Shown here: positions 2,161 through 64,000 of the stretch, piece after piece | Position numbering within the stretch: the first letter of the stretch is position 1 | How the letters are laid out: each line of letters opens with the position of its first letter | From: Narcine bancroftii | Lineage: Eukaryota | Reading direction: 5' to 3' | Assembly: GCF_036971445.1 (NCBI RefSeq) | Contig: NC_091469.1 | Location: 5,828,001-5,892,000, forward strand | Length of the DNA: 64,000 bases | Made by a program: the position numbers and the translations under genes | The notes under the pieces: generated by a model | Told to the model about the DNA's origin: nothing | Databases searched by the model: none | Seen by the model: the letters and a program-made list of their open reading frames with translations, nothing else

Positions 2161-2508
2161 TCATATCTAGAAGCGCCTCGGAGCACCTCCGTATCTGATG
2201 GAGGCGGGGCGACTGGTGCCGCAGTGTCACCCGTCATAAATATGCAGCATAGCAATGGCCGTCTTCCCTACCCATAATACGCCACGCAGGTGGAACCGCT
2301 CTGTGTTTCCCACACAGTTCCAACTGCATGGGGGGGATAATGGATAGGGAAAACCAGCATTGCTATGCTGCATTTTGATCCATAAAGGACAGCCCCGGTG
2401 CAGGAGGGGCCAGCTGGGCTCTGACAACCTGCACCGGCCGACATCCCCTGCCCCGACGTTTCCCCCACCGGCCGACCCGACATCCACTGCCAGCCGCCCT
2501 GCCCCAAC

Positions 2509-3165
2509 GGCCACCCGTGCCCCAGTAGGGCAGGGTCTGTCCGCCCCAACAGCCCCCACTGGCCACCCGTGCCCCAGTAGGGCAGGGTCTGTCCGCCCCA
2601 ACAGCCCCCACTGGCCACCCGTGCCCCAGTAGGGCAGGGTCTGTCCGCCCCAACAGCCCCCACTGGCCACCCGTGCCCCAGTAGGGCAGGGTCTGTCCGC
2701 CCCAACAGCCCCCACTGGCCACCCGTGCCCCAGTAGGGCAGGGTCTGTCCGCCCCAACAGCCCCCACTGGCCACCCGTGCCCCAGTAGGGCAGGGTCTGT
2801 CCGCCCCAACAGCCCCCACTGGCCACCCGTGCCCCAGTAGGGCAGGGTCTGTCCGCCCCAACAGCCCCCACTGGCCACCCGTGCCCCAGTAGGGCAGGGT
2901 CTGTCCGCCCCAACAGCCCCCACTGGCCACCCGTGCCCCAGTAGGGCAGGGTCTGTCCGCCCCAACAGCCCCCACTGGCCACCCGTGCCCCAGTAGGGCA
3001 GGGTCTGTCCGCCCCAACAGCCCCCACTGGCCACCCGTGCCCCAGTAGGGCAGGGTCTGTCCGCCCCAACAGCCCCCACTGGCCACCCGTGCCCCAGTAG
3101 GGCAGGGTCTGTCCGCCCCAACAGCCCCCACTGGCCACCCGTGCCCCAGTAGGGCAGGGTCTGTC
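2509..3165. repeat. 52-bp GC-rich minisatellite, ~12.6 essentially identical copies
   Basis: Unit GGCCACCCGTGCCCCAGTAGGGCAGGGTCTGTCCGCCCCAACAGCCCCCACT, with no spacers. Confidence 0.97.
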
Positions 3166-3399
3166 AGGCAGCGGGGAGTTGGATCGCCGGTTGATAGAGT
3201 CATCAGCCCGCCCGCAGGCAGCCTCTTACAGTGGCTGCACATTCAGATGCCTCAGCGGAGCCCGGCCCTCCACCGATTATCCTTCCCGGAGTAGCGTTGG
3301 TGTCGGTGCTTTTGGAGCATTCAGGCGAGTACTTCCTTAGCGGCATAGGGGGAGAAGATGTGGCTTTTCAATAGGGTGTTCAGGCCATCTGAAAGTGCT

Positions 3400-3709
3400 G
3401 GATGAGGGGGGCGGAGCAACAAGGCCGTTGGAGCTGGGACAAGTTACACCACATCAGATTAGGCAGGGCAATGAGATAATTTGGAGATACCGCCTGTGAT
3501 GCCACAATGCAATGGGCGGAGTAACGGCGCGTCCTGATGCCAGAACACAATAGGCGGTGCAACGAGGACCATTGGTCGGTGGGACTAATGACGTCAGAGA
3601 AGGTGGAACTGGCTGAGATGCAACAATTCACAAGGAGCGGTGTCGATCTTCGGCCTACATTGACGTAAGGGGGCGGTGCCTAGCTTGAGCGTGATTGCGT
3701 CACTGCACA
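3400..3709 (+). promoter_or_regulatory. CpG-rich promoter/5' UTR of MRPL18
   Basis: GGGCGG boxes, a TGACGTCA (CRE) at 3589-3596, TGACGT at 3661 and ATTGG, directly upstream of the ATG at 3710. Confidence 0.7.
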
Positions 3710-3758
3710 ATGGCAGCGACGGTGAGCACCGTGCGAGCGGCTCGAGCGGGAGCTACAG
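3710..3758 (+). CDS. MRPL18: Mitochondrial ribosomal protein L18 (uL18m), exon 1
   Basis: ACAATGG Kozak context; MAATVSTVRAARAGAT is Ala/Arg-rich and presequence-like; phase-1 donor CAG|gtaccg is compatible with exon 2. Confidence 0.7.
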
Positions 3759-4409
3759 GTACCGGCTGGAATGTTTGCTGGGGGAGGGCGGATTCATCCC
3801 CGGCTCTAATTGGCTGCTTTACTAGAAGAACAGGAGGCAATGATAATTCTCGCTGATTGGGCCCACAGATAATTGAGAGGGGCTGAAAATCTAGTCCGAG
3901 AGTTGATTAGCTGAGTAGCTTGAGGCGAGGCCCCCCTCGCTGGCTGCTGTTTGGCCGTTCCCCAGAGAGCCTGCCTTCTGATTGGGCAACGGTCACGATT
4001 TATCAAGCCCTCTTCGATCTTTGATTGGCTATTGGCTTCCGCTGTCGATTAGTCAGTTTACCCCCATTCTCTCATTGGTCGGACTGCCAAGGTTCGGACG
4101 ACTCCCGATCTCTGATTGTTCGAGTTCCGAAACGAGGAATGTCTGATTGGTTAATATAACAAGGGCAGGGTGGTACCTACCAAATCTTGACCTTTGATTG
4201 GTTACTATGGGAAGGGTGATAAATCTTGGGCTCTGATTGGCCTCTTTACAAAAAAAAGGTACGGGGCTCTATTCTCAGAGCATTGGAGGGGCCTGCACTT
4301 TCAGATAATCATTCCTCCCCTTCCATTCTCCTCCCCTTCCATTCTCCTCTCCTCCACCTCTTTCACCTCTTCCCTTCCATTCTTCTCCTTACCCTCATCT
4401 CTCCCACAG

Positions 4410-4602
4410 CCTCTCTGACAGGCTTCTGGGGCCGAGCCACAATGAGGCAGGTGATCTCTGAGGGTTGGAGGGAGATGCAGGGCAATGAGGCGGTGGCCCC
4501 GAGATTCAGGAACAGGAACCCCCGGAACCTGGAGTGCCTGGGGCTGGGCATCAAGGACAACGGCTGGCAGACAACATGGCCCCGAAGGAGCTACTGGCAC
4601 AG
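4410..4602 (+). CDS. MRPL18: MRPL18 exon 2 (alternative in-frame acceptor at 4422)
   Basis: [40 protein letters not shown] matches the uL18m motif [17 protein letters not shown]...GW...FWHR; donor AG|gtgatg. Confidence 0.9.
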
Positions 4603-5821
4603 GTGATGGAGGATCGATGGACAGAGGCAACTTGGGGTGTGAAGGTGGGGAGTATCGCGGGATGGAGTGACCTCAGGATACAAGGGTGGGACTCGCAGAG
4701 TATCAAGGGATCAATACAACCTGTGTGAAAATCCTGAGGAGGATTGTATTGGGTGATAAGGAGAATCTTGATGTGATATACCAAGGAACACAAGAGAAGT
4801 TGAAAAGATGGTGCCAGGAGAAGAACAGAAAACTTAGAAAGAGACAAGCGTGCAGAGGGCAAGGGTGTGTCGTAGAACAGAGACCTCGGGGTATGGGGAT
4901 TAGCACAGTGAATGGTGGGTTAATGTAGAACAGAGAGACTTCAGGGTACCTCGGGGTACGAGGGTGGGACACAGAGTCTCAAAGGATGGATACAACTTAT
5001 GTAAAGATCATGATGGGGGATAGGGAGAACCCTTGATGCTATATACAGCCTCTCCCGACTTATGATCGAAAAAACACTATAAATACTATATTTTAAAACT
5101 ATATAAATCAACATCATAAATTAGCATCACCACTATCTATTATTGGGGGCTGGTTGTGGGCTGTCGGGAGGGAGCAGGGCAGTAGGATCAGTGTGGGGGC
5201 TGGTGGCGGGCTTTTGGGAGACTCACCCGGCAGCCCGCTGTCAGTCCCGTGCTGGTCCCGCTGCCCACTCTCCCGGCGGCCCGCTGTTGGTCCACACACC
5301 TCCCTCCCAACAGCTTGTCACAAGCCCCCACACCGATCCCACTGCCCCACTCCTTCCCAATAGCCCATCACCAGCCTCCACACTGATCCCACCACCCTGC
5401 TCCAAAAAGGCAAACAATAAAATGGATACAGTAAATTTCTGACAAGCCCATTTTGAGATATGACCGGTTAGTCAGAACAGAATCAACATATATCAGAGCA
5501 TATCTTTACCAAGGAACAAAAGAGAGGTTGAAAAGATGGTGCCAGGAAAACAACAGAAAGAGGTGGGCGCACAGAGGGCAAGAGAAATACCTCAGGATAT
5601 GGGCACCAACATGGTGTATGGTGGGGAGTGTCATAGAACAGAGAAACCTTGGGGTACAGGGATTAACACAGTGAACAGTGGGAAGCGATGTCGAACAGAA
5701 CCTCGGGGTACAAGGGTGGGGAATGTGAAGGGATGCAGGGACTTCAAGGTATAAGGGTGGGGTATACAGCATGTGGATAGATCTCGGATGAAATCTCGTC
5801 CTTTCTCCCTCCCACCCCCAG

Positions 5822-6053
5822 GTTGACCGTGCGGAAGTCGCAACACTACCTGACAGCTGTCGTGGAGAGTGCTGCAGGTGAACCGGTGATCAGCGCCTCG
5901 ACTGGGGAATGGTGTATTCGCCGGCACCTTCCCAGTGGTCAGGGAGTCTCAGCAGCTCAAAACCTGGGCTGTGTCCTGGCCCGTCGCTGCCTTGAGGCTG
6001 GGCTTGGCTACCTGTCCTTCAGGGCCGTGCCTTGGGTGTACCGGTCAGATACG
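5822..6053 (+). CDS. MRPL18: MRPL18 exon 3
   Basis: ccag|G; LTVRKSQHYLTAVVE...VISASTGEWCIRRHL...LGCVLARRCLEAG...PWVYRSDT is the L18 core; donor gtaagg. Confidence 0.93.
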
Positions 6054-6278
6054 GTAAGGGGAGAGGAGGGAAGGAGAGGTGAAGGCAGGGAGATGGGAGG
6101 GAGAGAAGGAGAGATGGGGGACAGGAAGGAAGGAGGTGAAGGGAAGGTGAAGCGAGGGGATTGTGATGGGGAGGGGGTAGGAGAGGGGAGAAGACAGAGT
6201 GACAAAGAAGGGGAGGATTTGTTCACTCTCTGCTTTTTGCTGGAACAGATCTTCGTGATTTTTATAAATGACCTGGAC

Positions 6279-6644
6279 CAGTGGTTCTCAATGTTTTTCT
6301 TTCCACTCTCATCCCACTTTAAGTAATTCCTATTCCATCGGTGCTGTGATTAGTAAGGGATTGCTTAAGGTGGGATGTGAGTGGGAAAGGAAGGTTGAGA
6401 ATCATTGCTCTAGACCAAATCGTTACTGAAATATTTTGCCTGATAAAAATTGTCATTGACCCATTTCCTTTGGAGTTATGAAACCGTGCACATAATGTGT
6501 CAATTCGGTACAATTAAAACAGTGGTTTTCAAACCTTTTCTTTCCACCCACATACCACCTTAAGCAATCCCTTACCAATCACAGAGCGCATAGGGAATGC
6601 TTAAAGTGGTATGTAAGTAGAAAGAAAAAGATTGAGAACCACTG
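6279..6644. mobile_element. hAT (Charlie-like) MITE made of two palindromic units
   Basis: Termini CAGTGGTTCTCAA...TTGAGAACCACTG; units ~6279-6406 and ~6520-6644 are each self-complementary. Confidence 0.75.
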
Positions 6645-7289
6645 TCTTAAAGATATTTACCATTCTCCTTGTATTCTTCCACAGAGCTGTAAGGCACATG
6701 TGGATATTAATTAAAATTAATGTCTACATTCATATACACGAGGCAGACCCTCACTTCCACGAGAGAGGTGTTTTGGGCACTGGGAGGTTAAAGAGAGCAC
6801 AGAACATTACAGCACAATACAGGCCCCTCAGCCCATGATGTTGTGTTTACCTATAGAACAATACAGCACAGAAACAGGCTCTTTGATCCTTCATGTCCAT
6901 GCTGAACTATTATTCTACCTAGTCCCTTTTAAATATTTCCTCACCTTAAACCAATGGTTCTTTTCCCTTTTTCCATGAACGTACCACCATAGTAGAAAAA
7001 AATAGAGGGTTTCGGGATAGGGAGGGTTTAATGCTTTTTTTAAAAGGAATATATGGGCCAGGTCAATATCGAGGGTGAAGGACCGAAACTGTGCTGTTGT
7101 GTTCATTCATTCATTCAAGGCTCCAACTAAAAACTAACTTGTCTTCTTACTCTTTCATTTCTGATGAACGGTCTCCAAACCAAAACTAACTCTTCTTCCC
7201 TTTCCACACAGAAACCTAACCTAATATACCTAACCTACCAAAAATCAAACGAAACCCTTCCTACCTCGTAACCCTTTATTTTCCTTTGT

Positions 7290-8810
7290 CCTTTGCCTTC
7301 TTTTCTTCTTTCTTTGGCTTGGCTTCGCGGACGAAGATTTATGGAGGGGTAATGTCCACGTCAGCTGCAGGCTCGTTTGTGGCTGACAAATCCGATGCAG
7401 GACAGGCAGACACGTTTGCAGAGGTTGCAAGGGAAAATTGGTTGGTTGGGTGTTGGGTTTTTCCTCCTTTGTCTTTTGTCAGTGAGGTGGGCTCTGCGGT
7501 CTTCTTCAAAGGAGGTTGCTGCCCGCCGAACTGTGAGGCGCCAAGATGCACGGTTTGAGGCGATATCAGCCCACTGGCGGTGGTCAATGTGGCAGGCACC
7601 AAGAAATTTCTTTAGGCAGTCCTTGTACCTCTTTTTTGGTGCACCTCTGTCTCGGTGGCCAGTGGAGAGCTTGCCATATAACACGATCTTGGGAAGGCGA
7701 TGGTCCTCCATTCTGGAGACGTGACCTACCCAGCGCAGTTGGATCTTCAGCAGCGTGGATTCAATGCTGTCGGCCTCTGCCATCTCGAGTACTTCGATGT
7801 TGGAGATGAAGTCGCTCCAATGAATGTTGAGGATGGAGTGGAGACAACGCTGGTGGAAGCGTGCTAGGAGCCGTAGGTGATGCCGGTAGAGGATCCATGA
7901 TTCGGAGCCGAACAGGAGTGTGGGTATGACAACGGCTCTGTATACGCTAATCTTTGTGAGGTTTTTCAGTTGGTTGTTTTCCAGACTCTTTTGTGTAGTC
8001 TTCCAAAGGCGCTATTTGCCTTGGCGAGTCTGTTGTCTATCTCATTGTCGATCCTTGCATCCGATGAAATGGTGCAGCCGAGATAGGTAAACTGGTTGAC
8101 TGTTTTGAGTTTTGTGTGCCCGATGGATATGTGGGGGGGGCTGGTAGTCATGGTGGGGAGCTGGCTGATGGAGGATCTCAGTTTTCTTCAGGCTGACTTC
8201 CAGGCCAAACATTTTGGCATTTTCCGCAAAACAGGACGTCAAGCGCTGAAGAGCTGACTCTGAATGGGCAACTAAAGCGGCATCGTCTGCAAAGAGTAGT
8301 TCACAGACAAGTTGCTCTTGTGTCTTGGTGTGAGCTTGCAGGCGCCTCAGATTGAAGAGACTGCCATCCGTGCGGTACCAGATGTAAACAGCGTCTTCAT
8401 TGTTGAGGTCTTTCATGGCTTGTTTCAGCATCATGCTGAAGAAGATTGAAAAGAGGGTTGGTGTGAGAACGCAGCCTTGCTTCACGCCATTGTTAATGGA
8501 GAAGGGTTCAGAGAGCTCATTGCTGTATCTGACTCGACCTTGTTGGTTTTCGTGCAGTTGGATAACCATGTTGAGGAACTTTGGGGGGCATCCGAGGCGC
8601 TCTAGTATTTGCCAAAGCCCTTTCCTACTCACGGTGTCGAAGGCTTTGGTGAGGTCAACAAAGGTGATGTCAAGTCCTTTGTTTTGTTCTCTGCACTTTT
8701 CTTGGAGCTGTCTGAGGGCAAAGACCATGTCAGTAGATTCTCTGCGCGAAAGCCTCACTGTGATTCTGGGAGAACATTTTCGGCGACACTAGCCTAGCGA
8801 AGATTTTGCC
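7290..8810 (-). mobile_element. RTE-clade LINE, 5'-truncated, frameshifted ORF2 (RT)
   Basis: FVDLTKAFDTVSR, GVKQGCVL, LLFADDAALVAHSE, QLRWVGHVSRMEDHRLPK, C-terminal C2H2-like motif; 3' end with (GAA)-type tail. Confidence 0.92.
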
Positions 8811-8811
8811 T

Positions 8812-9375
8812 AAAAGTCTCTTAAATGCCTCTAAAGTTCCATTCTCCACCATTACCCATGGCAAGACATTCCAGGAGCCCACAACTCTGTGTAAAACAAA
8901 ATAATTACCCCTGATGTCTCCTTTAAACTTACCTCCCTTCACCTTGCACAGATGCTCTCTGGTGTTTGCTATTCCTTCCTTGGGGAAAAAGGTGCTGGCT
9001 GTCTACCTTATCTGTGCCTCTCGTAGTCTTGTAGACCTCTAGTCTCTCTTTCTTCTTTGCTGCAAAGAGAAAAATCCCAACTCTGTTAACCTTGCCTGAT
9101 AAGACATTTCCAATCCAGGCAACATCCTAGTAAATCTCCTCTGCATCCTCTACACAGGTTCCACATAGTTTCTGTAATGAGGTGACCAGAACTGAACACA
9201 ATATTCTAAGTGTGAGCTCACCAGCAGATTTATAGAGCTGCAACATTACCTCACGACTCCTGAGAACTCAATCCCTGAATAACGAACCCCAGCATATCAT
9301 CAGCCTTCTTAACTATCAACCTGTACGGTGACCTTAAGATCTATGGATTTGGACCCCAAGATCCCTCTGTTCTTT
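8812..9375 (-). mobile_element. CR1 LINE 3' fragment
   Basis: KGGKFKGDIRG...RVVGSWNVLP on the minus strand. Confidence 0.8.
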
Positions 9376-18136: not shown

Positions 18137-18424
18137 CTGTAGGTGGGGACAGAGAGGTGGGCGACCCCACATGGGAGGGGATGGATTGGTGGAGGAGGAA
18201 ACACTGTATGATGAGAGCGAGACCGGTGGGGTGTGAGATGTGGTGGAGGAGGAAGAGAAAGACGGTGAGAGAGTGAGAGACAGGGAGAGAGAGAAACGGG
18301 GAGAGAGAGAGAGAGAGAGACGGGGAGAGAGAGAGAGAGGCGGGGAGAGGGAGAGACGGGGGAGCAGGAGAGAGAGAGAAGGGGGGAAAGGAAAGAAGGG
18401 GAGAGAGAGACGGGGAGGGGGAGA

Positions 18425-19100
18425 GATGGGGGGAGGGGGAGAGACGGGGAGGGGGCGAGACGGGGGAGGGGGGCGAGACGGGGGAGGGGGGCGAGACGGG
18501 GGAGGGGGGCGAGACGGGGAGGGGGGCGAGACGGGGGAGGGGGCGAGACGGGGGAGGGGGCGAGACGGGGGAGGGGGCGAGACGGGGGAGGGGGCGAGAC
18601 GGGGGAGGGGGCGAGACGGGGGAGGGGGCGAGACGGGGGAGGGGGCGAGACGGGGGAGGGGGCGAGACGGGGGAGGGGGCGAGACGGGGGAGGGGGCGAG
18701 ACGGGGGAGGGGGCGAGACGGGGGAGGGGGCGAGACGGGGGAGGGGGCGAGACGGGGGAGGGGGGCGAGACGGGGGAGGGGGCGAGACGGGGGAGGGGGC
18801 GAGACGGGGGAGGGGGCGAGACGGGGGAGGGGGCGAGACGGGGGAGGGGGCGAGACGGGGGAGGGGGCGAGACGGGGGAGGGGGCGAGACGGGGGAGGGG
18901 GCGAGACGGGGGAGGGGGCGAGACGGGGAGGGGGCGAGACGGGGAGGGGGCGAGAGATGGGGGGGACTGATGCAGAGAGAGGGGGGGACTGACGGAGAGA
19001 GAGGAGGGGACTGACGGAGAGAGAGGGGGGGACTGACGGAGAGAGAGGGGGGGACTGACGGAGAGAGAGGGGGGGACTGACGGAGAGAGAGGGGGGGACT
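18425..19100. repeat. 17-bp G-rich minisatellite (GGGGGAGGGGGCGAGAC) followed by a ~21-bp repeat
   Basis: Direct tandem periodicity. Confidence 0.9.
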
Positions 19101-27109: not shown

Positions 27110-27802
27110 GAGGAAGAGGGGGAGAAGGGGGAAGAGGGGGAGAAGGGGAAGAGGGGGAGAAGGGGAAGAGGGGAGAAGGGGAAGAGGGGGAGAAGGGGAA
27201 GAGGGGGAGAAGGGAAAGAGGGGGAGAAGGGAAAGAGGGGGAGAAGGGAAGGGGGGGAGAAGGGAAGGGGGGGAGAAGGGAAGGGGGGGAGAAGGGGAAG
27301 AGGGGGAGAAGGGGAAGAGGGGGAGAAGGGGAAGAGGGGGAGAAGGGGAAGAGGGGGAGAAGGGGAAGAGGGGGAGAAGGGGAAGAGGGGGAGAAGGGGA
27401 AGAGGGGGAGAAGGGGAAGAGGGGGAGAAGGGGAAGAGGGGAGAAGGGGAAGGGGGAGAAGGGGAAGAGGGGAGAAGGGGAAGAGGGGAGAAGGGGAAGA
27501 GGGGGAGAAGGGGGAGAAGGGGAAGAGGGGGAGAAGGGGAAGAGGGGGAGAAGGGGAAGAGGGGGAGAAGGGGAAGAGGGGGAGAAGGGGAAGAGGGGGA
27601 GAAGGGGAAGAGGGGGAGAAGGGGAAGAGGGGGAGAAGGGGAAGAGGGGGAGAAGGGGAAGAGGGGGAGAAGGGGAAGAGGGGGAGAAGGGGAAGAGGGG
27701 GAGAAGGGGAAGAGGGGGAGAAGGGGAAGAGGGGGAGAAGGGGAAGAGGGGGAGAAGGGGAAGAGGGGGAGAAGGGGAAGAGGGGGAGAAGGGGAAGAGG
27801 GA
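27110..27802. repeat. Pure-purine 17-bp minisatellite (GGGGGAGAAGGGGAAGA)
   Basis: ~690 bp containing only G and A. Confidence 0.95.
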
Positions 27803-35326: not shown

Positions 35327-35461
35327 CTGTCAAATAGGGGGGGGGGAGAAGGGGGAAAGAGGATGAACCTGTTGAGAGAGAGAGACAGGGAGGGGTGGGG
35401 GGAAGAGGGGGGCGGGGAGTAAGGGGTGGAGAGCGAAACATGGGAGCAGGGAGGGGAGCAT

Positions 35462-36160
35462 GGGGACAGGGGAGGGAAGCATGGGAGCAGGGGAGGGAAG
35501 CATGGGAGCAGGGGAGGGAAGCATGGGAGCAGGGGAGGGAAGCATGGGAGCAGGGGAGGGAAGCATGGGAGCAGGGGAGGGAAGCATGGGAGCAGGGGAG
35601 GGAAGCATGGGAGCAGGGGAGGGAAGCATGGGAGCAGGGGAGGGAAGCATGGGAGCAGGGGAGGGAAGCATGGGAGCAGGGGAGGGAAGCATGGGAGCAG
35701 GGGAGGGAAGCATGGGAGCAGGGGAGGGAAGCATGGGAGCAGGGGAGGGAAGCATGGGAGCAGGGGAGGGAAGCATGGGAGCAGGGGAGGGAAGCATGGG
35801 AGCAGGGGAGGGAAGCATGGGAGCAGGGGAGGGAAGCATGGGAGCAGGGGAGGGAAGCATGGGAGCAGGGGAGGGAAGCATGGGAGCAGGGGAGGGAAGC
35901 ATGGGAGCAGGGGAGGGAAGCATGGGAGCAGGGGAGGGAAGCATGGGAGCAGGGGAGGGAAGCATGGGAGCAGGGGAGGGAAGCATGGGAGCAGGGGAGG
36001 GAAGCATGGGAGCAGGGGAGGGAAGCATGGGAGCAGGGGAGGGAAGCATGGGAGCAGGGGAGGGAAGCATGGGAGCAGGGGAGGGAAGCATGGGAGCAGG
36101 GGAGGGAAGCATGGGAGCAGGGGAGGGAAGCATGGGAGCAGGGGAGGGAAGCATGGGAGC
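35462..36160. repeat. 21-bp minisatellite (GGGAGCAGGGGAGGGAAGCAT), ~33 copies
   Basis: Perfect tandem array. Confidence 0.97.
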
Positions 36161-36329
36161 GGGGCAGGGTGAGCAGAGAGGGTGGGAAAAGCAGAGGAGG
36201 TTGGATGGAAGGGAGAAGAGGGGAGGGCGGGATAGGGACAGAGGGATGGGGAAGGAGGATGGGCATGGGGGCTGAAGGGAGGTGGGGTGGGAGGAGGAGA
36301 GGGGGATCTTCTGTGATCCTGACACTTAC

Positions 36330-39931: not shown

Positions 39932-40400
39932 GGAGGGGAGGGGGCGGGGAGGGGAGGGGGCGGGGAGGGGGAGCGGGCGGGGAGGGGGAGCGGGCGGGGA
40001 GGGGGAGCGGGCGGGGAGGGGGAGCGGGCGGGGAGGGGGAGCGGGCGGGGAGGGGGAGCGGGCGGGGAGGGGGAGCGGGCGGGGAGGGGGAGCGGGCGGG
40101 GAGGGGGAGCGGGCGGGGAGGGGGAGCGGGCGGGGAGGGGGAGCGGGCGGGGAGGGGGAGCGGGCGGGGAGGGGGAGCGGGCGGGGAGGGGGAGCGGGCG
40201 GGGAGGGGGAGCGGGCGGGGAGGGGGAGCGGGCGGGGAGGGGGAGCGGGCGGGGAGGGGGAGCGGGCGGGGAGGGGGAGCGGGCGGGGAGGGGGAGCGGG
40301 CGGGGAGGGGGAGCGGGCGGGGAGGGGGAGCGGGCGGGGAGGGGGAGCGGGCGGGGAGGGGGAGCGGGCGGGGAGGGGGAGCGGGCGGGGAGGTGGAGCG
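39932..40400. repeat. 17-bp G-rich minisatellite (GGGGGAGCGGGCGGGGA)
   Basis: Tandem array abutting the gap. Confidence 0.95.
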
Positions 40401-40870: not shown

Positions 40871-42682
40871 GGGGGGAGAGAGTGAGGCGAGGGGGGAGAG
40901 AGTGAGGCGAGGGGGGAGAGAGTGAGGCGAGGGGGGAGAGAGTGAGGCGAGGGGGGGAGAGAGTGAGGCGAGGGGGGAGAGAGTGAGGCGAGGGGGGAGA
41001 GAGTGAGGCGAGGGGGGAGAGAGTGAGGCGAGGGGGGAGAGAGTGAGGCGAGGGGGGAGAGAGTGAGGCGAGGGGGGAGAGAGTGAGGCGAGGGGGGAGA
41101 GAGTGAGGCGAGGGGGGAGAGAGTGAGGCGAGGGGGGAGAGAGTGAGGCGAGGGGGGAGAGAGTGAGGCGAGGGGGGAGAGAGTGAGGCGAGGGGGGAGA
41201 GAGTGAGGCGAGGGGGGAGAGAGTGAGGCGAGGGGGGAGAGAGTGAGGCGAGGGGGGAGAGAGTGAGGCGAGGGGGGAGAGAGTGAGGCGAGGGGGGAGA
41301 GAGTGAGGCGAGGGGGGAGAGAGTGAGGCGAGGGGGGAGAGAGTGAGGCGAGGGGGGAGAGAGTGAGGCGAGGGGGGAGAGAGTGAGGCGAGGGGGGAGA
41401 GAGTGAGGCGAGGGGGGAGAGAGTGAGGCGAGGGGGGAGAGAGTGAGGCGAGGGGGGAGAGAGTGAGGCGAGGGGGGAGAGAGTGAGGCGAGGGGGGAGA
41501 GAGTGAGGCGAGGGGGAGAGAGTGAGGCGAGGGGGGAGAGAGTGAGGCGAGGGGGGAGAGAGTGAGGCGAGGGGGAGAGAGTGAGGCGAGGGGGGAGAGA
41601 GTGAGGCGAGGGGGGAGAGAGTGAGGCGAGGGGGGAGAGAGTGAGGCGAGGGGGGAGAGAGTGAGGCGAGGGGGGAGAGAGTGAGGCGAGGGGGGAGAGA
41701 GTGAGGCGAGGGGGGAGAGAGTGAGGCGAGGGGGGAGAGAGTGAGGCGAGGGGGGAGAGAGTGAGGCGAGGGGGGAGAGAGTGAGGCGAGGGGGGAGAGA
41801 GTGAGGCGAGGGGGGAGAGAGTGAGGCGAGGGGGGAGAGAGTGAGGCGAGGGGGGAGAGAGTGAGGCGAGGGGGGAGAGAGTGAGGCGAGGGGGGAGAGA
41901 GTGAGGCGAGGGGGGAGAGAGTGAGGCGAGGGGGGAGAGAGTGAGGCGAGGGGGGAGAGAGTGAGGCGAGGGGGGAGAGAGTGAGGCGAGGGGGGAGAGA
42001 GTGAGGCGAGGGGGGAGAGAGTGAGGCGAGGGGGGAGAGAGTGAGGCGAGGGGGAGAGAGTGAGGCGAGGGGGGGAGAGAGTGAGGCGAGGGGGGGAGAG
42101 AGTGAGGCGAGGGGGGAGAGAGTGAGGCGAGGGGGAGAGAGTGAGGCGAGGGGGGAGAGAGTGAGGCGAGGGGGGAGAGAGTGAGGCGAGGGGGGAGAGA
42201 GTGAGGCGAGGGGGGAGAGAGTGAGGCGAGGGGGGAGAGAGTGAGGCGAGGGGGGAGAGAGTGAGGCGAGGGGGGAGAGAGTGAGGCGAGGGGGGAGAGA
42301 GTGAGGCGAGGGGGGAGAGAGTGAGGCGAGGGGGGGAGAGAGTGAGGCGAGGGGGGGTGAGAGTGAGGCGAGGGGGGTGAGAGTGAGGCGAGGGGGGGTG
42401 AGAGTGAGGAGGGGGGGGTGAGAGTGAGGCGAGGGGGGGGTGAGAGTGAGGCGAGGGGGGGGTGAGAGTGAGGCGAGGGGGGGGTGAGAGTGAGGCGAGG
42501 GGGGGGTGAGAGTGAGGCGAGGGGGGGGTGAGAGTGAGGCGAGGGGGGGGGTGAGAGTGAGGCGAGGGGGGGGTGAGAGTGAGGCGAGGGGGGGGTGAGA
42601 GTGAGGCGAGGGGGGGGTGAGAGTGAGGCGAGGGGGGGGTGAGAGTGAGGCGAGGGGGGGGTGAGAGTGAGGCGAGGGGGAG
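40871..42682. repeat. 20-bp minisatellite (GAGTGAGGCGAGGGGGGAGA), ~1.8 kb, switching to a 21-22 bp variant at the right end
   Basis: Tandem array starting ~10 bp from the donor of RNF20 coding exon 1. Confidence 0.97.
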
Positions 42683-57044: not shown

Positions 57045-59877
57045 TTGGAGGGAGAACAAATGCTTTAATTAGCTTATAACTATGGGTAGGGTTTCACAGT
57101 AGTCTTCAGAAGGGTTCTGGGTTTAAACAGGAAACCAGGGTTATATGTGAGCAGGTGGGGGTGGAACCAGGAGTCGGGGCCAGTCCATCAGCACAACACC
57201 CTACCAGTGAATCCCAGTTCACTGCATTCACCCCTTCCTGTAGAATTTTGGGGTCGATGAAGGAAGACAAAGAACATGGGTTCAGAAATAAAGTTGAAAA
57301 TTTACAGTTATTTACAGATTTAAGCGGTCCCGGGAATCTCTAGATACTGGTGGAGCGCCTTAGCACTGGGGGGGCCTTGGGCTCCTTAGGACTCCTGGTC
57401 CCCTTGTGAGGGAGGAGAGGCGGGCTGTGTCTCCGGCTCAATGGTGAAGGGGAATGCACTTTCTTCCTGAACCGGATCCCCCGAGGCCCTGACTGGGGGT
57501 GTGAGAATGAGCTCTGTGCCTCGCAGGGCATCTGAGGCAATGGACCCTCTGATCCAGCGGGTGCCAGGTCCTTGATGGAGACGGTGTCCTCTCTGCCATC
57601 CGGGTACTCCACACAGCGCCACATACATGGGATTGGCATGGAGCAGTTTCACCCTTCCACCAGTGGATCAGTCTTGCTTCTCCTCACGTGCTTCCTGAGA
57701 AGGACCAGACCAGGAATGGTGAGTCAGGTTGGAAGTGTAGTTCCAGATGCCAACCTTCTTTCGAAATTGAATAGGAGCTCATGAGGAGTAGCGTTTGGTT
57801 GTGGTACATAGTAGTGACAGATGGAATAGAGGATCATAGGAAGGACTTCCTGCCAGCGTGAGTCTGAAGGCCATTTGGACTTCAGGGCTAGTTTGACAGC
57901 CTTTTCCCTACCCACCCAGACCATGGCGTTCTATTTTCAACCTGTCCATTCCCCCGAAGGTTTGTAACTAGTAGTCCTGCTGGATGCGATGCCTCTTGCC
58001 AGCAGGTACTGATGTAGCTCGTCACTCATAAAGGATGAGGCCCGGTCGCTAAGAATATAGCTGGGATACCCAAACCAGGGCAAAAATGGAATCTAGGGCC
58101 TTTATGACTGACAAAGTGGAAGTGTCTGGACATGGAATGGCAAATGGGAAGCGTGAGTACTCATCAATGACAGACAGGAAGAAGTTGTTCCTGTTTGTAG
58201 AGGGGAGAGGTCCCTTAAAATCCACACTGAGCCGTTGAAGAGTCTGGATGGCTTGATCAGGTGCACCTTTGCTGGGTGGTAAAGTGCGGCTTGCACTCTG
58301 CGCAGACCTGGCAAGACCTGGTCATTTCCCTGACATCTTCCATGGAGTAGGGAAGATTGCATGCCATGACAAAGAGCCATTCGGGTGTCCCCTGGATGGC
58401 AGAGCTCATTATGCAGAGACTGCAGTTGGCCGGTGTGTGCAAAGGCACAGCTTCCTCTGGATAAGGCATCTGGAGGGTCATTAAGGGTTCCTGGACGATA
58501 GGCAATGTCATAATGCCATAGCAATCTTGTCATTTTTGATTTTTCCCATCTTGACATTTTTAAACATGAATGCGACCAAGCGCTGGTCAGTGAGGAGCGT
58601 AAATCTCCTACCAGCCAGGTAGTGTTTCTAGTGCCTCACAGCTTCTACAATGGCTTGAGCCTCATTTTCCACAGAGGGGTTCCAGAGCTCGTGGCTTGCA
58701 ATGTCCGAGGGAAAAAAAATGCAACCAGCCTGCCCACCTGGTTTGGGAGGGTAGCGGGCCAGAGCAATGTCCGAAGCATTGCTTTCCACTTGGAAAGGCA
58801 CTTTCTCGTCCACCCGTGTGCATGGCGGCTTTCGCAATGTGGTTCCGGAGGTAGTTAAAAGCCGTTTGGGTTTCAGTCGAGAGGGAGAAATTAGTTGCTT
58901 TAAAGAGAAGGTGAATCTTATCAATGTATTGAGGGATCCACTGGGCGTAATATGTGAAAAATCCCAGGAATCTCCTCAAAGCCTTTGTGGTCCAGGGGAT
59001 GGGGACCTCTAACAGGGGGCGCATCTTATTGGGATTGGGGCCAATGATGTCATTCTCCACCATGTAGCCCAGGATAGCCAGAGGTTTAGTCCTGAACATA
59101 CACTTGTTCGAGTTATAAGTGAGGTCCAGGGCTTTCGCTGCATGGAGAAAACTCTGGAGGTTGGTGTCATGGTTTTCCAAGATGTGGCCACAGATGGTGA
59201 CGTTATTGAGGTAGGGGAAGGTAGCCTTCAACCCATACTTGTCCACCATTGTCCATCTGTCTCTGGAAGATAGAAACTCCATTAGTGATACCGAAAGGGA
59301 CACTCCAGAATTGATAGAGATGACTGTTAGCCTCAAATGCCTTTTACGGACAGTCCTTGGAACGGATTGGCAGCTGATGATAAGCAGCTTTCAGGTTGAT
59401 GGTCGAATAGACCCAAAACTGCGCAATATCATTCACCATGTCCAAAATTTGAGGGAGGGGTAGGCGTCCAGGAGTGTGCACCGATTTAATAGTTTGGCTA
59501 TAGTCAATTACTAGCCTGGACTTGTTTTTCCCTTTTACCACAACCATTTGCGCTCTCCACAGGCTGGTGCTAGATTCGATGATACCTTCATCAAGCAGAC
59601 ATTGTGTCTCAGACTTTATGAAATCTCAATCTGCTATGCTGTACCTCCTGCTCTTGGTAGCGATAGATTTGCAGTCTGAAGACAGATTGGGAAGAAGAGA
59701 AGTGGGGGGTCGATATTCAGGATGGAGAGGCTGCATGTGGGTTCTGATTTTAGGAGCCCTCTGTTCCGAACCGTTACAGGGGGGAGGGGACCAGAATACT
59801 CCAAGGTCATGCTTTTAAGGTGACACAGGCAGTCCAGACTCAACATCACTGGAGCGCACAATTCATCAAGTATCTAC

Positions 59878-62300
59878 GAGGAGTCACGCGATGGAGTAGT
59901 GGCCGGACGGTGAACTCCAGCCCTCTCCAGAAAAGTCGGGAAAAACAAGAGAAAACACAAAGGCACAGAAATAAAAGTTACAGAAAAGTGAGTATAAAGG
60001 TGGAAAGAAGATGGCGACAAAAAAAGAAAAGTCGAAAGCAACGGTAAGAAGAGAGGAAGAGAAGACAAAGGAGGAAAAAGGTGAAGGCCTTACCTGTCCG
60101 AAGAGGCCCGCTGCGGAGAGAGAAACCCGCTCCCTCAGGTCGGTAAATAATGGACTACAAAAATGGCTCGCAGAGCCGAGTAAAAGTGCGCAACCGCGCA
60201 TGCGCGAAGTTTCGCGCATGCGCGATGCGAATGAAAAAAAACACACCGACGGGAGGGGGGACCAGCTGGGGAGTCGATCTCCACAGCCGGCAACGACAGC
60301 TGCAGAACACCTGCAGCAAGAAGAGACCACAGAAGACAATAGAAACAAGAAAGAAGAGGAGGAAAGGGCAACAAAGAAACAACAGATGGCCAACCCAGAG
60401 GAAGAAGAAGAGGAAGAGTATGGTGAAATAGAAGAAGAAAAGAAAGGCAAGGTAAAGGATATACTTGCTCTTATTAGAGGATACATGGAATCATTTAAAG
60501 AATGGCAAACACAGGAATTTAAGGATTTAAGAAAAAGAATAAACAACACAGAGGAGAAAATAATTAAAATGGAGATGACCTTAACAGAAATGGGAAAGAA
60601 AATGGACAAGATGGAAGAGCGGGCAGTAGCAGCAGAAATGGAGGTAGAAGACTTAAAAAAGAAATTGGAGAAATCTAATAAAAAAACTAAAGAGACACAA
60701 GAACTACTAGCTCAAAAAATAGATACAATGGAAAACCATAACAGAAGAAATAACATAAAGATAGTGGGCCTTAAGGAAGATGAAGAAGGCAAGAATATGA
60801 GGGAGTTTATAAAAGAGTGGATCCCTAAGACCCTAGGATGTCCAGAACTACAGCAAGAATTGGAAATAGAAAGGGCACATAGAGTATTGGCCTCTAAACC
60901 ACAACCACAACAAAAACCAAGATCTATTGTAGTAAAATTCCTAAGATATACTACAAGAGAAAAGGTACTGGAGAAGACAATGGAAAAAGTAAGAGAGGGC
61001 AACAAACCACTGGAGTATAAAGGGCAAAAAATCTTCATTTATCCAGATATAAGTTTTGAACTCCTAAAGAAGAGAAAAGAGTTCAATACAGCAAAGGCGA
61101 TTTTATGGAAGAAAGGGTATAAATTTATACTAAAGCATCCAGCGGTATTGAAAATATTTATTCCAGGACAACAAAACAGACTATTCTCGGATCCAGAAGA
61201 AGCACGAAAATTTGCAGAACAATTACAAAAATAGACTGAGGGAGGAAGACGGGTAATGAGAGTTAAGATGATCACAATTGATATGTATGTGGGTAAAGAC
61301 AAAAATAGACTGAGGGATGAAGACGGGTAATGAGAGTAAAAATGATCACGATTGATATGTATGCGGGTAAAGAGGTATAAGAGTGAATAGAGACAAGGAG
61401 CATACGTGAATGTATCTGTACTTAGAGGAAAATATAGATAGTATAGACAAAAATTAATAAGGGAAGGTAATGGAATAGAGAGAATAAGGAGGGAATTAAA
61501 AGAGTGACCTTTGTGACATATGAAAAGTGAAATCTTTTCTGGGGGAGGCGGGGTGGGGGGAAATAGCGGTCACTGCAAAATCAGTTGACGCTTGCGAGTG
61601 GATTCGCAAATCCAAATGGAGAGGGGAGATGTGGTTGTCCGACAAGGGATAAAGGACAACTCAGGAGGTGAATGGGAGATTGGGAATAAATAAGATAGAA
61701 ATAGGAGAATAAGGAAAATGTTGGATGTTGTAGGAATGTTGTCTTATAAAGAGTTGAAAATAAGAAAACAGAAATGGAAAAGGAGGAAAGGTAATGATGG
61801 AAAAACGGAAAGAGAAGATAAACAAAATATAAAAGGGCTACGCTGAACTATATGTCTTTAAATATTAATGGAATACATAACCAAATTAAAAGGAAGAAAC
61901 TACCAAATTTAAATGAATAAATGTATTCCATTAGAAAAAATAACATATTGGTTAAGAAATAATATTGAAATATTCGAACAAGTATAGGAGCCTTACATTA
62001 AATACAATAGCGAAAACCTACCGGGGACAAACATTACCTAAGTTGATGGAAGGAGAAGGAAAGAAAAGAATGGACTCAGTAGAATTTCTGGTGTAATTTT
62101 GTTGAATGACAACATTGTCTGACTGGATTAATGCAACCTAGATTGTATACCTAAAATGGATGAGAGGGGGGGTGGGGGGGTGGTTTGGGAGGAAAGGGGC
62201 GGGGGAGAAAAAGTCACTGTATATGTGTGAAAAAGAAATTGTGTATATCATGGCTAATGTGATTTATGGTGTGAAAAATTAAAAAAAAAAAAAAAAAAAA
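59878..62300 (+). mobile_element. Full-length ORF1-only L1 derivative (HAL1-like)
   Basis: Perfect TSD AAGTATCTAC (59868-59877 and 62301-62310), poly(A) tail, intact ORF1, ORF2 reduced to its two ends. Confidence 0.9.
60011..61234 (+). CDS. L1 ORF1p (coiled coil, RRM, CTD); the true start may be a downstream Met such as 60386
   Basis: MENHNRRNNIKIVGLKE, IERAHRV, PRSIVVKF, IFIYPDIS and HPAVLKI are L1 ORF1p/Transposase_22 motifs; the frame is uninterrupted. Confidence 0.92.
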   Translation: MATKKEKSKATVRREEEKTKEEKGEGLTCPKRPAAERETRSLRSVNNGLQKWLAEPSKSAQPRMREVSRMRDANEKKHTDGRGDQLGSRSPQPATTAAEHLQQEETTEDNRNKKEEEERATKKQQMANPEEEEEEEYGEIEEEKKGKVKDILALIRGYMESFKEWQTQEFKDLRKRINNTEEKIIKMEMTLTEMGKKMDKMEERAVAAEMEVEDLKKKLEKSNKKTKETQELLAQKIDTMENHNRRNNIKIVGLKEDEEGKNMREFIKEWIPKTLGCPELQQELEIERAHRVLASKPQPQQKPRSIVVKFLRYTTREKVLEKTMEKVREGNKPLEYKGQKIFIYPDISFELLKKRKEFNTAKAILWKKGYKFILKHPAVLKIFIPGQQNRLFSDPEEARKFAEQLQK

Positions 62301-64000
62301 AAGTATCTACAAGCAAAATTTACAGAACTGCCCCCCCCCCCTCAAATGACAGATATACTATACAATGTTGTTGAATACTGTAGAATGTGAATGAGATGCA
62401 AGGAATATGCGATAATTGGAAGGATACATATTCTTGCACAGTCTGTAAGTCTCTGAAGCTTTCAGTAGAGCCTGTGTCGATTAGGCATTTAGTGGATCTT
62501 CACAGTCACTATGGAGTTGCTGAGCTGGTGAGGTCTGTCCTGATCTAGAACTATCGAGGCTAGGACCCCAGAGACTCCATTCTCTTTGCTTGAGTGGCCC
62601 CCACTGTCCAGGGTTGCCCTTCATGGATAAGATGGCGTCGACCTCATGGCGTAGCAAGATGGCCACCCTCCTTCCTCCTCTGATGATGATGCCGCAGAGT
62701 TTGAATTTGGGTTTCAGCAAGATGGCTGCCGAGCCTTTTCACACCATTTCCTCACAACCACCCTCCGTCGGCGTGTAGTACAGCAAGTGGGTTCGGGTGA
62801 ACTTGGGGCAGATGGCTTCGGGCTGGAATTGGATCTGGGAGCAGTCCAGGCCACAAACTTCCCCGGGCTTCCCCTTGCGTGGCAAACCCTCGCCCAATGC
62901 TCTTTCTTGCCACAGCTGGAACTCACTGAGTCTTTTGCCAGGCAACAAGTTCAGGGATGCAGGCTCTTGCCATAGAAAAAGCACTCCCTGGCATGGGAAG
63001 CGGCAGCCATTAGGGCTGGGGTAGCGGAAGCATCTGGTCCTTGGAAGGGCTCTCCTGGGTAAGCGAGCTCGCTGGCTTATAGGTGGTTGTTTTCGAGCTT
63101 GGCCTGTTCCCACAATTTGACCAGTTCAACGTGGCTTGGGAGGTTCTTCTTTCCCAACTCATGCAGCCGCTGCCTCATGTATCTCAAGCGGACCCCCTGC
63201 GACAAGAATGTCCCAGATCTGTTCTTCCTCATGAACACAGCCCTTAGCCGCTTCTTCCCTGCACTTCTTGGCAAGCGTCCACAGATCCAGCAGGTAGTCA
63301 TCAATGGTTTCTCCTGGCCATTGGCAACTTAGTCAGTGCCTCGCTAGGACCTCATTTTGCGACTTCAGGTACCTAGCCTTCAGTGCCTCGATGGCAGTAT
63401 CATATGTAGTGCAGTCCCTGATGACTGCATAGCTTTTCATTCCTACACTCGAAACGAATGCGGACCTCCTGAGTTAATCGGTGTGGAAGGCGTCTCTGGT
63501 CGTGTTCAGGTAGGTCTGGAAGCAGTCTAGCCAGTATGTGAACTCCACAGCCATATCGAGGGACAGAAGGTCTATCAGCGGCGTACCTGGCTTGAGTAGA
63601 GCTTCCATCATCTAGGGGATAATCTAATAAAATTGTAGTGTGAATAAAAGCTCTCACGACAGGAGTGAGAACAAATGCTTTTATTAGCTTATAACTATGG
63701 GTAGGTTTCACAGTGGTCTTCAGAAGGGTTCTGGGTTCAGGCGGGAAACTAGAGTTTTATGTGAGCAGATGGGGGTGGAGCTGGGAGGCAGAGCCAACCA
63801 TCAGCACAACACCCTACCAGTGAATCCCAGTTCACCACAGAACCTCCCTCTCCCCCATCCCATCAAATTCTCCTGGGGTTGGACATAAGGTGAACCTTCC
63901 TCCGATCTGACCCGCCACGCAGTCCTGGGGTGTGACACAGAGTAAACTAATCGGAAAATGTCTTGATATTTTCCTGTGCAGAAAGAACCTCGTTCCCTCT

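What the first reader, a model, noticed from the sequence alone, without database searches (positions are those of the whole stretch)
59868..62310. Young, full-length ORF1-only L1 (HAL1-like non-autonomous retrotransposon)
Seen: a 2.4-kb unit with a defined 5' end, an uninterrupted ORF1, a pure poly(A) tail and a perfect 10-bp TSD. ORF2 survives only as ~26 N-terminal codons (xATLNYMSLNINGIHNQIKRKK, with the start mutated ATG>AGG at 61834) fused at ~61911 to what looks like the extreme ORF2 C-terminus (MNKCIPLEKITYWLRNNIEIFEQV*EPYIKY). Known: HAL1 'half-L1' families encode only ORF1 and are mobilised in trans. Inference: this element moved in its deleted form, and an intact ORF1 beside a decayed ORF2 remnant suggests selection on ORF1p in cis, so it may be an independently derived active HAL1-type family.
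Basis: partly seen in the sequence, partly recalled or inferred. Interest (0 to 1): 0.7.

Follow-up and report, generated by a model that had tools for sequence, protein, structure and literature searches.

The report
Half-L1 family trading ORF1 with helper
This is one young copy of a family of about 3,000 shortened LINE-1 jumping genes, likely in an electric ray, that lost their copying enzyme and likely borrow it from complete LINE-1s in the same genome; the complete elements in turn carry short stretches of the RNA-packing gene that likely came from the shortened family.

Summary
Confirmed. The 2.4-kb element (59878-62300, 10-bp TSD) has an intact 407-aa L1 ORF1 and lacks 3,590 bp of ORF2. 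The junction is not unique: 3,032 exact genomic matches; 85 of 99 sampled copies are full-length, and all 66 TSDs found among 81 full-length copies differ. The likely helper is in the genome: a 6.0-kb L1 with both ORFs intact, 94% identical, with the same target preference. This is a HAL1-type non-autonomous L1, a kind known from mammals (rat RNHAL1), likely in an electric ray; the scan noted such elements in this genome before. A second, independent ORF1-keeping deletion family exists (51 matches). Selection on ORF1 in cis is only suggested (p 0.05-0.06), not shown. The youngest autonomous subfamily (821 matches) carries a short ORF1 tract closer to half-L1 copies than to its own predecessors, and a 34-copy subfamily carries a tract matching the youngest half-L1s. 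An AU tree test on that tract was inconclusive.

The parts
59868..59877 (+). left target-site duplication (10 bp), at a CATC|AA site typical of the family
   Evidence: empty paralogous site L173 and site profile
59878..60010 (+). 5' UTR (presumed internal promoter; inferred), 4.5% different from the autonomous copy L070
60011..61234 (+). ORF1, 407 aa: N-terminal region, coiled coil (heptad register from about codon 149 to 243), RRM (about 247-329), CTD (about 334-397)
60195..60224 (.). CpG-rich palindrome (13-bp arms, 4-nt loop) inside ORF1; recurrent deletion hotspot in older copies of both lineages
   Evidence: fold z=-5.85; deletions of many sizes; 7/67 young versus 22/52 older half-L1 copies deleted
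60341..60461 (+). ORF1 codons 111-151 (acidic stretch and start of the coiled coil): segment likely exchanged between the half-L1 and autonomous lineages
61225..61373 (+). 74-bp tandem duplication at the ORF1 end, also present in the autonomous element
61235..61833 (+). inter-ORF spacer, 5.2% different from the autonomous copy
61834..61911 (+). ORF2 N-terminal stub, 26 codons, start codon AGG instead of ATG; deletion junction at 61911
   Evidence: AGG in 93 of 99 sampled copies
61911..62041 (+). ORF2 C-terminal remnant (about 43 codons), out of frame with the stub, with an internal stop at 61985-61987
62042..62280 (+). 3' UTR with a G-rich tract, homologous to the autonomous 3' UTR (92% over the 3' 400 bp)
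62281..62300 (+). poly(A) tail
62301..62310 (+). right target-site duplication

Best explanation
This is one recent full-length copy of a multi-thousand-copy ORF1-only L1 family (HAL1 type) that arose by a single 3.59-kb deletion in ORF2 and likely retrotransposes using the ORF2 protein of its autonomous sister L1 in trans, while likely supplying its own ORF1 protein in cis. Shown: one shared junction, dispersed copies with their own TSDs and tails, a 94%-identical autonomous L1 with both ORFs intact, the same target preference and TSD length in both, loss of the ORF2 start in the family, and ladder-like succession of subfamilies in both lineages. Inferred: transcription from the retained 5' end, ORF1p coating its own RNA, capture of helper ORF2p at the 3' end/poly(A), target-primed reverse transcription. 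Its success is likely helped by short length (86% of copies that reach the junction keep the 5' end). The two lineages likely swap short tracts, most often around ORF1 codons 111-151, probably by template switching during reverse transcription (mechanism inferred).
For: 3,032 exact junction matches beside 2,661 matches to the undeleted ORF2 5' motif. 85 of 99 position-sampled junction copies reach the 5' end; 42 of those 85 keep ORF1 open. 66 of 81 full-length half-L1 copies examined gave a TSD of 8 or more, all 66 different, median 16; autonomous 27 of 30, median 16; both prefer CATY|AA (T at -2 in 44/56 and 17/24). L070: 6.0 kb, ORF2 1,265 aa with endonuclease (E=2e-12) and RT (E=1e-42); 8 of 40 position-sampled ORF2-start copies have both ORFs open. 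Trees: 29 autonomous and 87 half-L1 copies form sister groups, each a ladder ending in near-zero branches. ORF2 remnant carries inherited N+stop:S of 8:1 in half-L1 against 0:2 in the helper (p=0.055). Exchange: 4 of 119 half-L1 copies carry runs of 3-8 helper-type letters; 21 derived alleles shared against 2.2 expected from the overlap of private mutations; neighbour-incompatibility test 0 of 2,000 permutations; tract comparisons.
Against: Trans-mobilisation and ORF1p use in cis are not tested experimentally. Purifying selection on ORF1 is borderline (rest of ORF1 outside codons 105-245: ratio 0.47, p=0.049; RRM+CTD alone 0.44, p=0.11; frame lesions p=0.06; within-region N:S tests all non-significant), and the parsimony count gave ORF1 N/S at or above neutral. 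Other L1 families in the genome could also act as helpers. The AU test on codons 105-156 did not reject separate clades (p=0.50 and 0.27). The half-L1 clade has weak stem support (0.73; 39.7) and one copy (L081) falls outside it.
Confidence: 0.88

Rival explanations
1. ORF1 is a passenger: the family moves like a long SINE using both helper proteins, and ORF1 is still open only because the lineage is young.
For: No significant N:S deficit within any ORF1 region; parsimony ratio for inherited ORF1 changes 1.5-1.9 relative to tips; frame test p=0.06, and 0.29 against inter-ORF indels.
Against: The ORF2 remnant took disabling changes that spread through the lineage (start loss, W-to-stop) while no ORF1 stop or frameshift outside the hairpin is shared by more than 3 of 115 copies; amino-acid variants pile up at codons 105-245 (24 shared/33 private against 9/95 elsewhere, p=1e-6), which a non-translated passenger would not be expected to show unless all were imported.
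Confidence: 0.25
2. The alleles shared by half-L1 and helper are convergent substitutions under a common selective pressure on the coiled-coil start, or come from an older unsampled ORF2-bearing donor, not from the half-L1.
For: 15 of the 21 shared alleles are non-synonymous; codon 138 changed to different residues in the two lineages; the 60421/60422 pair can arise through a CpG intermediate; basal copy L105 is only 4 differences from the young helper tract against 2 for the best half-L1; L094 shows a basal-type patch in the same region; AU test inconclusive. The tract limits were chosen after seeing the data.
Against: 6 shared alleles are silent or non-coding (about 1.3 expected, p=0.002); the young helper tract regains a deleted codon and several ancestral letters at once; L092 differs by 1 letter from the youngest half-L1s over 129 bp against 6 from its own subfamily; those alleles appear stepwise along the half-L1 ladder (74-78 of 115 copies) but all at once in 2 of 28 helpers; 12 of 12 such loci examined keep the ORF2 ATG and undeleted junction and are helper-type on both sides of the tract.
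Confidence: 0.3
3. A one-off deletion after insertion at this locus.
For: None found.
Against: 3,032 exact junction matches on many contigs, with distinct flanks and TSDs.
Confidence: 0.01

Closest known systems
HAL1 (half-L1) of mammals, above all rat RNHAL1
   Same: L1-derived, ORF1 only, both ends kept, non-autonomous, repeated independent origins (PMC5753468, passages). Rat RNHAL1: about 7,500 copies, thought still to propagate, 5' part 98% identical to the active L1 (PMC2241872, one passage). Guinea-pig HAL1 kept ORF1 coding capacity for a long time, read as cis ORF1p plus trans ORF2p (PMC3627910, passage). Short length preserving the promoter is already noted for rat HAL1 (PMC8535693, passage).
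   Different: Host is likely a cartilaginous fish (nearest named protein from Narcine bancroftii, 92%); separate origin; ORF2 stubs and the exact junction are still legible; tract exchange with the helper was not seen in the passages read. Bao and Jurka 2010, the main HAL1 paper, was not held, so what it says on non-mammals or recombination is unchecked.
ORF1-present bipartite non-autonomous LINEs (HeT-A, Ag-Sponge, HAL1) as grouped in PMC5786205 (passages)
   Same: Internal deletion keeps both ends and ORF1; proteins proposed to multimerise with those of the autonomous partner.
   Different: HeT-A is Jockey-clade and telomeric, Ag-Sponge CR1-clade; this element is L1-clade and dispersed.
Recombination between mouse L1 families, including coiled-coil transfers (PMC3600994, passages)
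   Same: Segments of the ORF1 coiled coil move between co-existing L1 families; polymerase strand switching is one proposed route.
   Different: There the donors named are autonomous families; here the likely donor is an ORF2-less family and the tracts are short (about 40-130 bp).
Non-mammalian L1 dynamics as summarised in PMC5381506 (section 16 read, plus passages)
   Same: L1-clade element in a non-mammalian vertebrate.
   Different: That paper reports no cascade phylogeny, no ORF1 arms race and very few full-length progenitors in fish, frog and lizard (sharks not mentioned: 0 hits); here there are ladders, excess coiled-coil-region change and an estimated ~500 double-intact helpers (8 of 40 x 2,661).

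Membership tests
HAL1-type (half-L1) non-autonomous retrotransposon | Derived from an L1-clade element | tested here: met
   ORF1 matches human L1 ORF1p, E=5e-13; 92-95% identical to an L1 with APE endonuclease and RT
HAL1-type (half-L1) non-autonomous retrotransposon | Encodes ORF1p only; ORF2 lost | tested here: met
   3,590-bp deletion, start codon lost, remnant out of frame; no ORF2 of 1,240 aa or more in 81 full-length copies
HAL1-type (half-L1) non-autonomous retrotransposon | Amplified as a family in the deleted form, with TPRT hallmarks (poly(A), variable TSD, 5' truncations) | tested here: met
   3,032 junction matches; 66 distinct TSDs; 14 of 99 copies lack the 5' end
HAL1-type (half-L1) non-autonomous retrotransposon | ORF1 coding capacity maintained by selection | tested here: inconclusive
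   p=0.049-0.11 for amino-acid constraint, p=0.06-0.29 for frame; parsimony ratio not below neutral
HAL1-type (half-L1) non-autonomous retrotransposon | Mobilised by ORF2p of an autonomous L1 in trans | not testable with these tools
   Indirect only: co-active helper, same target profile and TSD length
Mammalian HAL1 lineages in the strict sense (HAL1, HAL1b, RNHAL1) | Descent from a mammalian L1 | tested here: not met
   Sister to an L1 of this genome at about 5% divergence; nearest named proteins are from rays. Convergent origin.
Named Repbase/Dfam family | Match to a curated consensus | not testable with these tools

The most novel reading that the evidence does not exclude
The half-L1 is not only a parasite of its helper but a reservoir of ORF1 variation for it: the currently amplifying autonomous L1 subfamily (821 matches) took the start of its ORF1 coiled coil from the half-L1 lineage, a second import founded a 34-copy subfamily, and both lineages run a mammal-style ladder with accelerated coiled-coil change in a cartilaginous fish.
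Probability: 0.55. Interest if true: 0.72.

Novelty: new member of a known kind. Interest (0 to 1): 0.55.

Why it matters
It gives a young, fully resolved half-L1/helper pair: exact deletion point, both lineages still producing near-identical copies, thousands of full-length insertions. That makes two open questions testable: whether HAL1-type elements need their own ORF1p in cis, and how a non-autonomous L1 gets around cis preference. If the tract exchange holds, a non-autonomous element feeds variation back into the fast-evolving part of its helper's ORF1p. The ladder trees and large pool of intact L1s also run against the published picture of non-mammalian L1s, which did not include cartilaginous fish.

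Tried and rejected
Unique post-insertion deletion: rejected. DNA search with the helper's ORF2 3' part returned no candidates; the tool skips very common words, and an exact pattern gave 9,346 matches, so the blank means nothing. Expression: no RNA holder listed; runs guessed to be RNA are contigs and cannot show level or strand. Presence in other organisms: contigs of coded organisms B and C show the AGG start, and one C contig crosses the junction with only 29-30 letters a side, below the tool's 31-letter rule; organism D showed only the ATG and undeleted forms among listed pieces; inconclusive. AU test of helper or half-L1 monophyly on codons 105-156: no rejection. Simple purifying selection on the whole ORF1: not found. 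First count of shared alleles (24 vs 1.9) included alleles ancestral to both lineages; redone as 25 minus 4 fixed in both = 21 vs 2.2; one of the 21 (60341) may also be ancestral. The shared -31 and -18 deletions in ORF1 were considered as inherited ORF1-dead subfamilies and rejected: carriers are interleaved with intact copies and occur in both lineages at a hairpin. One-sided C-to-T decay reported for another half-L1 family of this genome was not seen here (inherited C>T 4, G>A 18). No structure or complex prediction was run: a trimer pass would follow from likeness to solved L1 ORF1p. Literature: searches showed no paper on HAL1 in cartilaginous fish or on HAL1-to-L1 exchange (listings seen; one search returned 0); Bao and Jurka 2010 was not held; no supplements were opened, and Repbase/Dfam entries could change the novelty claim.
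Full report
Observation. The element runs from 59878 to a pure poly(A) ending at 62300, between two copies of AAGTATCTAC. A paralogue of the flanking LTR element without the insertion shows the flanks overlapping by 10 bp (L173). ORF1 (60011-61234, 407 aa) is open and aligns with human L1 ORF1p over the coiled-coil end, RRM and CTD (E=5e-13); the Atlas's nearest clusters are chordate L1 ORF1 proteins. The nearest named protein is from the electric ray Narcine bancroftii (92%), then a stingray (46%), so the host is likely a ray.

It is a family. A DNA search with the 3' part gave 899 candidates, 40 scored, all 99-100% identical across the junction. An exact 43-nt junction pattern has 3,032 matches, reversed control 0; this is a lower bound. 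I fetched the 39 closest copies and 99 of the first 100 listed junction hits on contig C1 (the hundredth is the window). 85 of 99 reach the 5' end, 42 of those 85 keep a 395-415-aa ORF1, and 93 of 99 read AGG at the old ORF2 start, 2 ATG, 4 unreadable. Among 81 full-length copies examined for TSDs, 66 gave one of 8 bp or more, all different, median 16. The closest copies differ by 0.4% on average.

The helper. Next to one fetched copy lay a complete L1 (L070, 6.0 kb, its own TSD) with ORF1 and a 1,265-aa ORF2 holding endonuclease and RT domains. It is 94% identical over the 5' 2.0 kb and 92% over the 3' 0.4 kb. The comparison fixes the deletion at 3,590 bp with 1 nt of microhomology, leaving 26 N-terminal and about 43 out-of-frame C-terminal codons. 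The undeleted ORF2 5' motif has 2,661 matches and one variant of the undeleted 3' motif 9,346. Of the first 40 listed ORF2-start hits, 8 are full-length with both ORFs open and 2 belong to a second deletion family. Helper and half-L1 share TSD length and a CATY|AA target profile, as expected if one endonuclease inserts both (inference).

History. Trees of full-length copies (CpG-prone columns masked) show two sister ladders about 5% apart, both ending in near-zero branches. Support for the helper stem is full; for the half-L1 stem it is weak, and chimeric L081 falls outside. A second ORF1-keeping family with a different, in-frame ORF2 deletion branches earlier; it has 51 exact junction matches, its own TSDs, and mostly broken ORF1 (3 of the 22 copies examined have an ORF1 of about 400 aa). 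ORF2 loss thus spread at least twice from this L1 lineage.

Selection on ORF1. I compared variants shared by 3 or more copies with private ones, each counted once, CpG columns, the hairpin, a G-tract and 4 chimeric copies left out (115 half-L1, 28 helper copies). Outside codons 105-245, shared amino-acid variants are about half of neutral expectation (9/95 vs 43/214, p=0.049); RRM+CTD alone gives p=0.11. Disabling lesions outside the hairpin: 1 shared (a homopolymer slip in 3 copies) against 29 private, p=0.06, or p=0.29 with inter-ORF indels as the yardstick. The ORF2 remnant, by contrast, lost its start and gained a stop along the lineage. Codons 105-245 show an excess of shared amino-acid variants in both lineages (3.6-fold, p=0.0001; 2.5-fold, p=0.026); the boundary at 105 was set after seeing the data, the first cut at 136-245 gave 3.2-fold, p=0.004, and within-region N:S tests are not significant. 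A parsimony count gave no deficit of non-synonymous change overall. So cis selection on ORF1p is likely but not shown.

Exchange with the helper. Four of 119 full-length half-L1 copies carry runs of 3-8 helper-type letters. Of derived alleles shared within each lineage, 25 occur in both; 4 are fixed in both and so ancestral; the other 21 compare with 2.2 expected from how often private mutations coincide. Seventeen lie at 60341-60619; 6 are silent or non-coding. Neighbouring informative sites are more compatible than shuffled ones (0 of 2,000). The 12 youngest sampled helpers differ from their predecessors at 60400-60470 by 9-11 letters including a regained codon, but from half-L1 copies L086/L198 by 2-3; just downstream the pattern reverses (0-1 versus 13). 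That type has 821 genomic matches, the older type 834. A second type (L092, both ORFs open) is 1 letter from the youngest half-L1s over 129 bp; it has 34 matches, and 12 of 12 examined keep the ORF2 ATG and are helper-type on both sides of the tract (the central tract letters were part of the pattern, so only the flanks and left extensions are independent). Against: the AU test on the 158-bp tract rejects nothing, a basal copy is only 4 letters from the first tract, and most shared alleles change amino acids, so convergence or an unsampled donor remain possible.

Mechanism. Shown: structure, family, helper, shared targeting, ladders. From established L1 biology (recalled) and inference: the retained 5' end drives transcription, ORF1p binds its own RNA, helper ORF2p engages the 3' end, and target-primed reverse transcription makes a copy with tail and TSD. 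Being 2.4 kb, most copies stay full-length and can become sources; the ORF2-start to 3'-motif ratio of the helper (2,661 to 9,346) suggests a much lower share there, though the patterns are not strictly comparable. Template switching between co-packaged or co-localised RNAs is the likeliest route for the tracts; gene conversion is not excluded.

Comparison with what is known. HAL1 is defined as an L1 derivative encoding only ORF1p, arisen several times in mammals (PMC5753468, passages). Rat RNHAL1 is a young high-copy precedent (PMC2241872, one passage); guinea-pig HAL1 supports cis ORF1p (PMC3627910, passage); ORF1-present bipartite LINEs are reviewed in PMC5786205 (passages); canine review PMC13756887 (passages) and PMC8535693 (passages) mention HAL1 only for mammals. 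Coiled-coil transfer between mouse L1 families is known (PMC3600994, passages). PMC5381506 (section 16 and passages) finds no ladder or ORF1 arms race in fish, frog and lizard. Bao and Jurka 2010 was not held. My searches found no paper on HAL1 in cartilaginous fish or on HAL1-to-helper exchange, which is limited to the library held. Earlier notes of this scan describe half-L1 elements in this genome and in other rays; none of the lines shown mentions exchange.

Verdict. A real, young, high-copy HAL1-type family with an identified helper: a new member of a known kind. The likely two-way ORF1 exchange and the mammal-like dynamics are the parts worth following. Interest 0.55.

Noticed in passing
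L112, L113, L216-L235; G000:C1:28092402 and 50 other places: Second, older ORF1-keeping deletion family of the same L1: keeps the ORF2 ATG and an in-frame deletion leaving a 192-codon mini-ORF2; 51 exact junction matches.
   Followed up: partly
G000:C1:384067111-384187941: Eight copies of the second family's junction at about 17-kb spacing: a tandem segmental array.
   Followed up: no
window 60195-60224: CpG-rich palindrome in ORF1 that is deleted again and again in older copies but kept in the source lineages. Each arm resembles an NRF1 binding motif (motif recalled, not tested).
   Followed up: partly
window about 57900-59867 and 62311-63300, minus strand: The half-L1 sits inside an old, broken Gypsy-like LTR retrotransposon, between protease-like and RT-like sequence (labels from translation and recall; integrase PF00665 E=7e-5, below cut-off). 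Nearest paralogues are 85-90% identical; 2,492 candidates.
   Followed up: partly
L037/L070, L061, L063, L080, L082, L085, L113: Many copies lie directly beside or inside other L1 copies (for example a 5'-truncated half-L1 abutting the tail of L070), hinting that L1 sequence is a frequent target. Not tested against chance.
   Followed up: no
helper sample L090-L129: A large pool of intact L1s for a non-mammal: 8 of 40 sampled copies have both ORFs open, about 500 by extrapolation.
   Followed up: partly
P0002, P0003, P0005: Ray proteins named FAM122B isoform X1, GrpE-like and tRNA adenosine deaminase 1 isoform X3 contain L1 ORF1 sequence: either exonised L1 pieces or annotation artefacts.
   Followed up: no
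window 2501-3165, 18407-18955, 27112-27801, 35431-36169, 39935-40400, 40871-42680: Highly homogeneous minisatellite arrays (periods 52, 17, 17, 21, 17, 20; 95-99% matches).
   Followed up: no
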